A stretch of 1,043 nt of DNA from the NCBI GenBank assembly GCA_000004985.1, contig GG739599.1. One strand, given 5' to 3'. Shown here in pieces: positions 1-1,043 of this stretch (the first letter of the stretch is position 1; each line of letters starts with the position of its first letter). The DNA comes from Naegleria gruberi (lineage: Eukaryota). The translations under genes and the position numbers were made by a program. Under the pieces are notes generated by a model that was not told the origin of the DNA, ran no database searches, and saw only the letters and a list, made by a program, of their open reading frames with translations.

Positions 1-25
1 CCATTTAGTTTGAACTAACAGTTAT

Positions 26-703
26 TTGACAGTTCTAAACAAGCATTTCAAGAATGAAATGAATGGAATGAAATTCGAAAGTGAGATGGTAAATATCACG
101 TTACCATTGAACATTTCAACTTTCTTGAAAACCAATTCAATCAAGTCACCAATCAAGTATAGATGGAATATTCAAAAAAATACAGATACCATTGCAATTT
201 TAAAGCAACCTGGAAAGATGATATCTATCAATTCAGTTGTAAATAGTTTACAACTTGATCCTTCACCTCAATCTTATTCGAAATACTTATTCGACATTGA
301 GATGAAACAATACGACAGTCAGGCAACTTATGTTTGTGCTAACATTGGATCAGCATCACTGGAAACTGATTGTGCCATTTCTATCAAGAATAATCAAATA
401 GCAACTTGTGAATGCTCTACATTAGGATATAATCTTGCAATTCTTGAATACAAATCAATTGAAACTGCATCAACCTCCTCTTCATCAAATTCAAATATAA
501 TTGTCAAAAAACCTGCAACTAGCAATCCATTAATGTGGTTATTAATGTTACTAGTCCTCATTCCACTAACTGCCCTACTAATTGCAGTAATTATTTGGTT
601 TGTAGTAAAGAAACTCGGTAAAGATAAGAACAATACAAGAAATTCACACTCATACATGCAAACACAAGAAAGCAGTTCTACGATTGAATTGAAGCATGTT
701 TAA
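26..703 (+). CDS. Hypothetical single-pass membrane glycoprotein-like protein. It has a 4-Cys motif, a Ser/Thr-rich stalk, a C-proximal TM helix and a short Lys-rich cytoplasmic tail. The start is unresolved: the frame is open from 14, the first in-frame ATG is at 59, and the TTG at 26 is only the ORF-finder start. This is possibly the terminal exon of a spliced gene.
   Basis: A 225-codon stop-free frame in AT-rich DNA is unlikely by chance, because stops are frequent in AT-rich sequence. The frame ends with TAA at 701-703. Hydrophobic segment LMWLLMLLVLIPLTALLIAVIIWFVV lies at nt 530-607 and is followed by KKLGKDK (positive-inside rule). The S/T-rich run ETASTSSSSNSN...PATSNP lies at nt 461-529. 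Cysteines sit at nt 335-337, 371-373, 407-409 and 413-415. N-I-T and N-I-S sequons lie at 92-100 and 110-118. There is no purine-rich RBS before any candidate start. An in-frame TGA lies at 11-13. Confidence 0.7.
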   Translation: MTVLNKHFKNEMNGMKFESEMVNITLPLNISTFLKTNSIKSPIKYRWNIQKNTDTIAILKQPGKMISINSVVNSLQLDPSPQSYSKYLFDIEMKQYDSQATYVCANIGSASLETDCAISIKNNQIATCECSTLGYNLAILEYKSIETASTSSSSNSNIIVKKPATSNPLMWLLMLLVLIPLTALLIAVIIWFVVKKLGKDKNNTRNSHSYMQTQESSSTIELKHV

Positions 704-711
704 TCTCTCTC
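704..711. repeat. (CT)4 dinucleotide microsatellite immediately after the stop codon.
   Basis: TCTCTCTC is read directly at 704-711. It is short and probably of no functional weight. Confidence 0.5.
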
Positions 712-715
712 TTTA

Positions 716-784
716 AATAAATACCTTTGTATATTCCAACCCAAATATGTGTTGCTGAATTAATAAATACATGTTTTTATTTGA
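716..784 (+). terminator. Putative 3'-end processing region for the upstream CDS. It holds two AATAAA hexamers (716-721, 762-767) and a U-rich block TGTTTTTATTTG (773-784) right after the second hexamer.
   Basis: The canonical AATAAA occurs twice, 13 and 59 nt after the stop codon. A T-rich downstream element follows the second hexamer, matching eukaryotic poly(A) signal grammar. A yeast-style TATATT/TGTATA-like efficiency element also lies at 728-735. AATAAA alone is not rare in AT-rich DNA, so this is only suggestive. Confidence 0.35.
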
Positions 785-830
785 TGAATAGACAGCTTCT
801 TCATGATCACATTTTGTGCAATTTACTGTA

Positions 831-900
831 AAAAGAAAAAGGGAAATTAACGTGTATCCAAAAAGATATAACATTCTAAACTTTCTAACAACATGTTCAT
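831..900 (+). promoter_or_regulatory. A-rich, TATA-containing putative promoter/5' leader for the ORF starting at 901 (AAAAAGAAAAAGGGAAATTAACGTGTATCCAAAAAGATATAACATTCTAAAC...).
   Basis: Poly-A/AG tract at 831-843. ATATAA at 866-871. Its position lies between the putative 3' processing signals of the upstream gene and the next ATG. It is purely compositional, with no experimentally defined motif I can match with certainty. Confidence 0.2.
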
Positions 901-1043
901 ATGTTGCACGGCCGTACGAAAGCTTCATCTGCTCAAATTCTTGAGAGTACATGTATTACTACGTTTTCTGTAAATCTTGACTGGTCTATCTTCTTATCTA
1001 TCAGAAACGAGCTTGTCGAAAGTTGGCGGAGAGATTTCTCTTA
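901..1043 (+). CDS. Possible 5' end of a second plus-strand gene (partial, continues beyond the window). The N-terminus reads MLHGRTKASSAQILESTCITTFSVNLDWSIFLSIRNELVESWRRDFS...
   Basis: The frame is open from 889 to the window edge, about 51 codons. By my rough estimate such a run has a chance probability of a few percent in AT-rich sequence. ATG at 901 sits inside CATATG. It is preceded by an A-rich stretch (831-872) containing the TATA-like GATATAA at 865-871. The other two plus frames and all three minus frames hit stops before the edge. The call is weak because the frame is short and truncated. Confidence 0.3.
   Translation, partial: MLHGRTKASSAQILESTCITTFSVNLDWSIFLSIRNELVESWRRDFS

What the first reader, a model, noticed from the sequence alone, without database searches (positions are those of the whole stretch)
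11..118. Predicted surface protein lacks a signal peptide; upstream context looks like an intron 3' end (CTAAC branch point plus pyrimidine-rich YAG)
The ORF's topology needs a large N-terminal ectodomain translocated across the membrane. The C-side of the TM helix is strongly positive. The upstream stalk is S/T-rich, and the sequons lie N-terminal. Yet no hydrophobic leader follows TTG26, ATG59, ATG68 or ATG86, and the frame is closed at TGA 11-13. Directly upstream the sequence reads tgaaCTAACag-TTATTTGACAG. This is a CTAAC branch-point consensus at 15-19 followed 12-13 nt later by a pyrimidine-rich tract and CAG at 30-32. A second AG sits at 20-21. The simplest reading is that the window opens inside an intron. 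On that reading the exon begins at about 33 (or 22), and the signal peptide and true start codon lie in an upstream exon outside the window.
Basis: partly seen in the sequence, partly recalled or inferred. Interest (0 to 1): 0.5.

Follow-up and report, generated by a model that had tools for sequence, protein, structure and literature searches.

The report
Truncated gene fragment, not an intron
The window is a 1-kb orphan contig of the amoeba Naegleria gruberi holding only the last ~229 codons of a ~1,850-residue surface protein. The signal peptide is missing because the contig is cut inside an exon, and the intron-like motifs are ordinary conserved codons.

Summary
The observations are accurate. 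Frame 2 is closed by TGA at 11-13, no hydrophobic leader follows any candidate start, there is one C-terminal TM helix, and CTAAC and CAG sit at the stated positions. The intron interpretation fails.

The window is an entire 1043-bp Naegleria gruberi contig. Its annotated 214-aa protein (ATG59) is a fragment model. The open frame 14-700 equals residues 295-523 of a 523-aa paralogue (224/229 identical, 15/15 upstream of ATG59). It also equals residues 1627-1854 of a full-length 1854-aa paralogue.

The full-length paralogue has a hydrophobic N-terminal leader, about 10 EGF repeats, a REJ domain, a GAIN/GPS-like domain, one TM helix and a short tail.

The supposed branch point is ACT-AAC (Thr-Asn). 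The supposed acceptor tract is TAT-TTG-ACA-G (Tyr-Leu-Thr-Val). Both are conserved as protein in the paralogues. Bases 1-13 still spell the paralogues' P-F-K-F-E if two single A bases are restored (chance about 3 in 100,000).

So the window opens inside coding sequence. Two 1-nt gaps at its extreme end, either contig-end sequencing errors or a decayed copy, create the TGA. This is ordinary and of low interest.

The parts
1..13 (+). Remnant of upstream coding sequence. CCA TTT A(A)G TTT GA(A) corresponds to P-F-K-F-E of the paralogues, with two single-A gaps. The in-frame TGA at 11-13 is a by-product of the second gap.
   Evidence: P0003 reads ..GQTPFKFE|TNSYL and P0004 reads ..GQIPFKFE|TNSYL. 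Only 6 of 200,000 random 13-mers match this back-translation with 2 or fewer 1-nt deletions.
14..58 (+). Coding sequence (TNSYLTVLNKHFKNE) upstream of the annotated start. It contains the supposed branch point CTAAC (15-19, the codons ACT AAC) and the supposed acceptor CAG (30-32, within ACA GTT).
   Evidence: 15/15 residues identical to P0003 295-309 and 14/15 to P0004 1627-1641.
59..61 (+). ATG used as start by the database model (XP_002667941, 214 aa). It is an internal Met, equivalent to M310 of P0003 and M1642 of P0004.
   Evidence: P0001 is 100% identical to 59-700. Cluster and paralogue alignments support the internal position.
14..451 (+). C-terminal part of a GAIN-like domain (beta-sandwich subdomain B), carrying the NIT and NIS sequons that start at nt 92 and 110.
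   Evidence: In the AF2 model of P0003, strands 291-444 follow a helical subdomain at 162-283. The only Foldseek PDB hits with E<=1e-3 are GAIN domains: 4dlo at 1.7e-10, plus 8vy2 and 8ikj. The family profile hits ADGRL3 at E 3.6e-9.
335..451 (+). GPS-like motif with four family-invariant Cys (C-x11-C-x11-C-x-C) followed by STLGYNLAILEY. T-L-G occupies the position of the canonical H-L-T/S cleavage triad.
   Evidence: C402, C414, C426 and C428 of P0003 are invariant in alignment A1. HMMER aligns the family's CsCskltnvfvie with CSCNHLTNFAVLM of ADGRL3. Pfam GPS is hit by 2 family members, with best E 1.2e-8.
452..529 (+). Ser/Thr-rich juxtamembrane stalk (KSIETASTSSSSNSNIIVKKPATSNP).
   Evidence: Sequence read directly. 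pLDDT is below 50 in the model at residues 444-464.
530..607 (+). Single transmembrane helix (LMWLLMLLVLIPLTALLIAVIIWFVV).
   Evidence: Kyte-Doolittle mean reaches 3.16. The model has a helix at 466-497.
608..703 (+). Short basic cytoplasmic tail (KKLGKDKNNTR...ELKHV) and the TAA stop at 701-703.
704..1043 (.). 3' flank. AATAAA occurs at 716 and 762. No tRNA or Rfam family was found, and only short unconvincing ORFs are present.

Best explanation
The window is a complete, very short (1043-bp) unplaced contig of the Sanger-era Naegleria gruberi assembly. It begins in the middle of an exon of a member of a recently duplicated gene family.

The family encodes large type I surface glycoproteins. 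Their order of parts is signal peptide, N-terminal domain, about 10 teneurin-type EGF repeats, REJ domain, EGF, GAIN-like domain with a degenerate GPS motif, Ser-rich stalk, one TM helix and a short basic tail.

The window holds only the last ~229 codons: the end of GAIN subdomain B, the GPS-like motif, the stalk, the TM helix and the tail. The signal peptide is absent because about 1,626 codons (about 4.9 kb of coding sequence) lie beyond the contig end.

The in-frame TGA at 11-13 arises from two missing single A bases in the first 14 nt (AAG to AG, and GAA-ACT to GAACT). The annotation pipeline therefore fell back on the first ATG (59) and produced a 214-aa fragment model.

- Shown: identity of the contig, collinearity with the longer paralogues through 14-58 and (with two gaps) 1-13, the domain architecture of the full-length paralogue, and the GAIN-like fold.
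- Inferred: that the two 1-nt gaps are base-calling errors in A-runs at a low-coverage contig end. I put this at about 60%, against real frameshifts in a decaying partial copy at about 35%.
- Inferred: that the GPS is non-cleaving in this copy, because Gly replaces the Thr/Ser nucleophile.
For: - Identity of the contig; the ORF is N. gruberi XP_002667941 (NAEGRDRAFT_77148), whose longest contig is 1043 bp, the length of the window. The same 90% cluster holds P0003 (523 aa, on a 3510-bp contig).
- Collinearity; window 14-700 matches P0003 295-523 at 224/229 identity, including all 15 codons before ATG59; bases 1-13 match the back-translated PFKFE with two 1-nt deletions, and only 6 of 200,000 random 13-mers do so.
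- Full-length paralogue. P0004 (1854 aa, N. gruberi, 507-kb scaffold) covers all of P0003 at 86% identity and reads ..PFKFETNSYLTVLNKHFKNQMNGMKF.. without interruption. P0004 has EGF repeats and a REJ domain (PF02010, E 1.6e-24, residues 1122-1445). P0004 has a hydrophobic leader (MAIIQRRTATIASLLIIVLWYCFC, 12-aa KD maximum 2.54) and one further TM segment near its C-terminus. TNSYL starts at residue 1627.
- GAIN/GPS homology by profile, predicted fold and Pfam.
- Motif frequency. CTAAC and CTAAC..YAG are no more frequent than chance and recur inside the CDS.
- Assembly. (PMC9928731, Table 1): the N. gruberi assembly is Sanger-based with 1,977 scaffolds.
Against: - No N. gruberi genomic DNA other than the window could be fetched. 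The two 1-nt gaps are therefore inferred from back-translation of paralogue proteins, not from a DNA alignment.
- The paralogues are themselves unverified gene models.
- No transcript data were available.
- P0002 lies on a 782-kb scaffold, yet it is also modelled from the same internal Met and ends early. Truncated or decayed copies may therefore really exist in this family, which keeps the pseudogene alternative alive for the window.
- The signal peptide of P0004 was judged by hydropathy only.
Confidence: 0.85

Rival explanations
1. The window opens inside a spliceosomal intron, with branch point CTAAC at 15-19 and an acceptor at AG 20-21 or CAG 30-32. A short upstream exon supplies Met plus a signal peptide.
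For: The motifs are present at the stated positions. All three frames are closed within the first 18 nt, so some discontinuity with upstream coding sequence is required. N. gruberi is a eukaryote with spliceosomal introns (established knowledge).
Against: - Codons 14-58 are conserved as protein in two longer paralogues (15/15 and 14/15). Either acceptor would remove conserved residues.
- Bases 1-13 are homologous to the preceding codons of those paralogues.
- The motif combination occurs twice more inside the CDS and is within the range of shuffled sequence.
- The missing N-terminal part is about 1,626 residues of EGF, REJ and GAIN domains, not a leader exon.
Confidence: 0.03
2. The two frameshifts at 1-13 are real. 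The window is a recently duplicated, partial or decaying copy (a pseudogene) of the C-terminal module of the family, not a sequencing artefact.
For: - At least four copies of this module exist, at 90-98% identity.
- P0002, on a large scaffold, is also modelled only from the internal Met and ends prematurely.
- Two of the copies sit on tiny contigs, which is typical of unresolved repeats.
- 4 of the 5 substitutions against P0003 cluster around the GPS-like motif.
Against: - The remaining 229 codons are fully open in 31%-GC DNA and are 97.8% identical to P0003.
- Both gaps are under-called A-runs within 14 nt of a contig end, where Sanger base-calling is least reliable (inference).
- No other disabling change is visible.
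Confidence: 0.3
3. ATG59 is a genuine start. The gene encodes a short 214-aa signal-less membrane protein, inserted by its C-terminal TM helix or through an unconventional route.
For: This is the database model. P0002 is modelled the same way.
Against: - The 15 codons upstream of ATG59 are conserved as coding sequence.
- The product would begin in the middle of a beta-sandwich domain.
- It would carry N-glycosylation sequons and four disulfide-type Cys, which require ER translocation.
- The TM helix is followed by 31 residues, so the protein is not a tail-anchored design.
Confidence: 0.03

Closest known systems
Polycystin-1 / suREJ / PKDREJ family (REJ module followed by a GAIN domain with GPS, next to the membrane)
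   Same: The full-length paralogue has a Pfam REJ domain (E 1.6e-24), followed by a GAIN-like domain and a four-Cys GPS-like motif just before the first TM helix. This is the same order as in polycystin-1 (PMC4810088).
   Different: - There is only one TM helix and a 31-residue tail. There is no PLAT domain and no 11-TM or channel-like region.
- A 26-residue Ser-rich spacer lies between the GPS-like motif and the TM helix.
- T-L-G replaces the H-L-T cleavage triad.
- The EGF repeats are of the teneurin type rather than LRR/PKD repeats.
Adhesion GPCR GAIN domains (latrophilin/ADGRL, BAI3/ADGRB3, CELSR1, CD97)
   Same: These are the best profile hits (ADGRL3 E 3.6e-9) and the best fold hits (4dlo E 1.7e-10, 8vy2, 8ikj). 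The model has a helical subdomain A plus a beta subdomain B, and a CxC motif followed by a terminal beta-strand.
   Different: - No 7TM domain follows.
- The Pfam GPS model does not reach significance on the window copy.
- The catalytic His and the Thr/Ser nucleophile are absent.
Fragment gene models on short unplaced scaffolds of draft eukaryotic assemblies
   Same: The contig is as long as the window. The model starts at the first ATG after a contig-end stop. A near-identical longer model sits on another small contig, and a full-length paralogue sits on a large scaffold.
   Different: Nothing distinguishes this case from that class.

Membership tests
Spliceosomal intron 3' end | Branch-point-like motif, pyrimidine tract and AG present and more frequent than chance | tested here: not met
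   The motifs are present. However, CTAAC occurs 4 times on the + strand and CTAAC..YAG 3 times, 2 of them inside the CDS. 13/200 and 15/200 shuffles reach these counts. The tract is only 6/11 pyrimidine.
Spliceosomal intron 3' end | Sequence upstream of the acceptor is non-coding and not conserved as protein in homologues | tested here: not met
   Bases 14-32 encode TNSYLTV, identical in P0003 and P0004. Bases 1-13 match PFKFE with two 1-nt gaps.
Spliceosomal intron 3' end | Upstream donor-bearing exon, and spliced transcripts across the junction | not testable with these tools
   The contig ends at base 1. No N. gruberi genomic or transcript data could be retrieved.
GAIN domain / GPS motif | Fold with a helical subdomain A followed by a beta-sandwich subdomain B that ends in the GPS strands | tested here: met
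   The AF2 model of P0003 (pLDDT 71.9, pTM 0.70) has helices at 162-283 and strands at 291-444. All four Foldseek PDB hits with E<=1e-3 are GAIN domains. The window covers only the residues from 295 onwards.
GAIN domain / GPS motif | Sequence-profile homology, including the conserved Cys pattern C...C...CxC | tested here: met
   The family profile hits ADGRL3 at E 3.6e-9, ADGRF1 at 6e-7 and 4dlq at 0.0045. Four Cys are invariant. Pfam GPS is hit by 2 of 15 members at E 1.2e-8, but not by the window copy alone.
GAIN domain / GPS motif | Catalytic H-L-T/S(C) triad at the cleavage site | tested here: not met
   The window has T-L-G and P0003 has S-L-R at the aligned positions. The nucleophile requirement is taken from PMC4810088.
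GAIN domain / GPS motif | Autoproteolysis actually occurs | not testable with these tools
   This needs biochemistry.
Polycystin-1-like (PKD1/REJ) proteins | REJ module N-terminal to the GAIN/GPS | tested here: met
   PF02010 is found in P0004 (1122-1445, E 1.6e-24), P0005 and P0007. It lies outside the window itself.
Polycystin-1-like (PKD1/REJ) proteins | PLAT domain and an 11-TM (or multi-TM) C-terminal region | tested here: not met
   There is a single hydrophobic segment and a 31-aa tail. There is no PLAT hit.
Adhesion GPCR | 7TM domain directly after the GAIN domain | tested here: not met
   Only one TM helix is present.
Type I membrane protein with cleavable signal peptide | N-terminal hydrophobic leader | tested here: inconclusive
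   It is absent from the window product. In the full-length paralogue P0004 it is present by hydropathy (KD 2.54 over residues 8-19, with RR before and IEA|S after). No dedicated signal-peptide predictor was available.

The most novel reading that the evidence does not exclude
Naegleria (Heterolobosea) carries a recently expanded, multi-copy family of giant single-pass surface proteins. In these, a REJ module and a GAIN domain are anchored by one TM helix rather than by a 7TM or 11TM body. Most members, including this copy (T-L-G), lack the canonical H-L-T cleavage triad. If that holds, the GAIN domain here would act as a non-cleaving juxtamembrane scaffold. It would be a deep-branching form of the REJ-GAIN pairing that, as far as I found, has not been discussed in the literature (no paper combining Naegleria with GAIN/GPS/polycystin).
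Probability: 0.5. Interest if true: 0.3.

Novelty: not a real feature. Interest (0 to 1): 0.1.

Why it matters
It matters mainly as a correction. The 'missing signal peptide' and the 'intron acceptor' both come from a contig that is cut inside an exon, and the database entry XP_002667941 (214 aa) is a fragment model that should not be used as a full-length protein.

There is one modest biological by-product. The fragment belongs to a Naegleria family with an EGF - REJ - GAIN - single-TM architecture. This adds a heterolobosean, apparently non-cleaving example to the distribution of GAIN domains.

Tried and rejected
- **Fetching paralogue DNA.** I tried to fetch genomic DNA of the paralogues to align the 5' end at nucleotide level. 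The look-up of encoding contigs had no record for P0001-P0004. A metagenome scan with the ORF found no relative. The other collections are prokaryotic or viral, so I did not use them.
- **Word-indexed homologue search.** With P0003 it returned nothing, apparently because low-complexity words saturated the candidate list. The exhaustive HMMER scan then found 24 relatives.
- **Pfam on the window ORF alone.** It gave only sub-threshold TM-region noise: TMEM154, Orf78 and YxzE. I rejected these as meaningless.
- **RNA genes.** There is no tRNA. The only Rfam match is TeloSII_ncR43 at 19 bits against a gathering score of 298, which I rejected as chance.
- **Prokaryotic origin, or ATG59/TTG26 as a true start.** I rejected both. 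The organism is N. gruberi, and the upstream codons are conserved as coding sequence.
- **The N. gruberi genome paper.** Fritz-Laylin et al. 2010 was not held. Intron statistics for this species are therefore not cited.

Full report
**What is in the window.** The sequence is AT-rich (26-38% GC). It has one long ORF on the + strand. It is listed from TTG26 to the TAA stop at 701-703, and the frame is open from base 14, just after TGA 11-13.

- All three forward frames are closed within the first 18 nt.
- CTAAC lies at 15-19, AG at 20-21 and CAG at 30-32.
- No hydrophobic segment follows any candidate start. The highest 19-residue Kyte-Doolittle mean in the first 60 residues is 0.74.
- A single strong TM helix lies at nt 530-607, followed by KKLGKDK.
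- A Ser/Thr-rich stalk precedes the helix (452-529).
- NIT and NIS sequons start at nt 92 and 110.

The splice-like motifs are not unusual, however.
- CTAAC occurs four times on the + strand.
- CTAAC followed by YAG within 5-35 nt occurs three times, two of them deep inside the coding region.
- Both counts are reached by 13-15 of 200 shuffles.

**Where it comes from.** A protein search identified the ORF as Naegleria gruberi XP_002667941 / EFC35197 (NAEGRDRAFT_77148, 'predicted protein', 214 aa). It is 100% identical from ATG59, and its only contig is 1043 bp long, so the window is the entire contig. The N. gruberi assembly is Sanger-based with 1,977 scaffolds (PMC9928731 Table 1). The organism is a eukaryote, so introns are possible in principle.

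**The decisive comparison.** The same 90%-identity cluster contains P0003 (NAEGRDRAFT_54901, 523 aa, on a 3510-bp contig).
- The whole open frame 14-700 (229 aa) aligns without gaps to P0003 residues 295-523, with 224/229 identities. All 15 codons upstream of ATG59 (TNSYLTVLNKHFKNE) are included.
- An exhaustive HMMER scan with P0003 found P0004 (NAEGRDRAFT_48114, 1854 aa, on a 507-kb scaffold). Its residues 1336-1854 cover all of P0003 at 86% identity. It reads ...LIGQIPFKFETNSYLTVLNKHFKNQMNGMKFESEM... straight across the region in question.

The supposed branch point is therefore the codon pair ACT-AAC (Thr-Asn). The supposed polypyrimidine tract and acceptor are AGT-TAT-TTG-ACA-GTT (Ser-Tyr-Leu-Thr-Val). 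Both are conserved as protein. An acceptor at 21/22 or 32/33 would delete conserved residues.

**Bases 1-13.** Both longer paralogues have P-F-K-F-E immediately before TNSYL. The window begins CCATTTAGTTTGA, which is CCA TTT A-G TTT GA- with two single A's missing. Relative to the expected sequence, AAG has become AG and GAA-ACT has become GAACT.
- No match exists with 0 or 1 deletions, but an exact match exists with 2.
- Only 6 of 200,000 random 13-mers of the window's composition match in this way. Within the window itself, only positions 1 and 2 do.

So the contig starts inside coding sequence, and the TGA at 11-13 is created by the second gap. Both gaps shorten A-runs within 14 nt of a contig end. 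I infer base-calling error at a low-coverage Sanger contig end as the more likely cause (about 60%), with genuine frameshifts in a decaying copy as the alternative (about 35%).

I could not settle this, because no other N. gruberi DNA was retrievable. One observation argues for caution. P0002 (NAEGRDRAFT_65615, 203 aa, 92% identical) lies on a 782-kb scaffold, yet it is also modelled from the same internal Met and ends early (...HSYMQM). Truncated copies may therefore really exist in this family.

**What the gene is.** Pfam on P0004 gives about 10 teneurin-type EGF repeats, a REJ domain (PF02010, residues 1122-1445, E 1.6e-24), and one further EGF. That last EGF corresponds to P0003 residues 134-158.
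- The N-terminus, MAIIQRRTATIASLLIIVLWYCFCTQHSIEA|SN, has a basic n-region and a hydrophobic core (12-aa KD maximum 2.54).
- The only other strongly hydrophobic segment is the C-terminal TM helix. This fits a type I topology, with the signal peptide 1,626 residues upstream of the window's first codon.

I aligned the C-terminal ~520-600 residues of 15 family members. All those checked are from Naegleria (gruberi or fowleri), and lengths reach 4,968 aa.
- Four Cys are invariant (P0003 C402, C414, C426, C428). They form the pattern C-x11-C-x11-C-x-C, followed by [KS]x[LF]T-NVF[VI][IM]E, and then by the TM helix.
- A profile of this alignment hits adhesion-GPCR GAIN/GPS regions in the PDB: ADGRL3 at E 3.6e-9, ADGRF1 at 6e-7, and the latrophilin-1 GAIN crystal structure 4dlq at 0.0045. 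HMMER places the family's CsCskltnvfvie on CSCNHLTNFAVLM.
- Two family members reach the Pfam GPS model (best E 1.2e-8). The window copy alone does not.

An AlphaFold2 model of P0003 built with this alignment has mean pLDDT 71.9 and pTM 0.70.
- It shows a helical bundle (162-283), then a beta domain (291-444), a disordered stalk and a TM helix (466-497).
- In Foldseek against the PDB, the only four hits with E<=1e-3 are GAIN domains: BAI3 4dlo (two chains, E 1.7e-10 and 1.4e-8), CELSR1 8vy2 and CD97 8ikj.

The window therefore encodes the second half of GAIN subdomain B (nt 14-451), the GPS-like motif (335-451), the stalk, the TM helix and a 31-residue tail.

**How it probably works (inference).** The REJ, GAIN/GPS, first-TM order is that of polycystin-1 (PMC4810088). 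Here, though, the membrane part is a single helix with a short basic tail. The protein is therefore neither a polycystin nor an adhesion GPCR.

At the position of the canonical H-L-T/S triad, the window has T-L-G (P0003 has S-L-R). Gly cannot supply the nucleophile needed for cis-autoproteolysis. This copy is therefore expected not to self-cleave. The GAIN domain would serve as a rigid juxtamembrane module holding a very large EGF/REJ ectodomain.

The feature is an artefact of contig truncation, plus two 1-nt gaps at the contig end. The database model is a fragment.

**Novelty and interest.** The claimed intron end is not a real feature. The gene fragment is already in the databases as a 'predicted protein', and N. 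fowleri relatives are auto-annotated as 'PKD/REJ-like domain-containing'. The one mildly new point is the family's architecture: single-pass, EGF-REJ-GAIN, with a degenerate GPS. I found no paper linking Naegleria to GAIN/GPS. Overall interest is low.

Noticed in passing
window 374-441: Four of the five amino-acid differences between the window and P0003 (A121S, T136S, G138R, A142S in ORF numbering) fall within 22 residues around the GPS-like motif, at the positions equivalent to the cleavage site and the terminal beta-strand. The other 200 or so residues differ only once.
   Followed up: partly
P0002 (NAEGRDRAFT_65615, 782-kb scaffold); aligns to window 59-664: This paralogue lies on a large scaffold, yet it is modelled only from the same internal Met (MNGMKF) and ends early (...HSYMQM instead of ...HSYMQTQESSSTIELKHV). 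It may be a truncated or decayed copy, or a poor gene model.
   Followed up: no
P0003 (NAEGRDRAFT_54901, 3510-bp contig): P0003 starts at a Met that is internal in P0004 (M1336, in the context ..SGIAMTTIFTFNCPKCQ..) and has no hydrophobic leader. It too is a fragment model on a small contig. At least four copies of the C-terminal module exist at 90-98% identity, which suggests a recently expanded family that the assembly could not resolve.
   Followed up: partly
window 704-1043: The 3' flank has AATAAA at 716 and 762. GC rises to 0.37-0.38 at 851-1000, where a 79-aa minus-strand ORF (713-952) lies. There is no evidence that this ORF is a gene, and the flank was not searched against protein databases.
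   Followed up: no
window 588-761 (- strand): There is a weak Rfam match to TeloSII_ncR43 (19.2 bits against a gathering score of 298, E 0.041). It is almost certainly chance.
   Followed up: yes
family members P0005, P0007, P0015 and others (N. gruberi): Relatives reach 4,500-4,970 aa. They combine NHL/teneurin-like beta-propeller repeats, dozens of teneurin-type EGF repeats, REJ and the GAIN-like module. P0026 (2,529 aa) keeps a His in its GPS (CACTHTTDFSGLL), and a long further C-terminal region (about 440 residues, not examined) follows its first TM helix.
   Followed up: partly
tool behaviour: The word-indexed homologue search with P0003 returned no hit at all, not even P0001. The exhaustive HMMER scan found 24. 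The Ser-rich low-complexity stretch probably saturated the candidate list.
   Followed up: no
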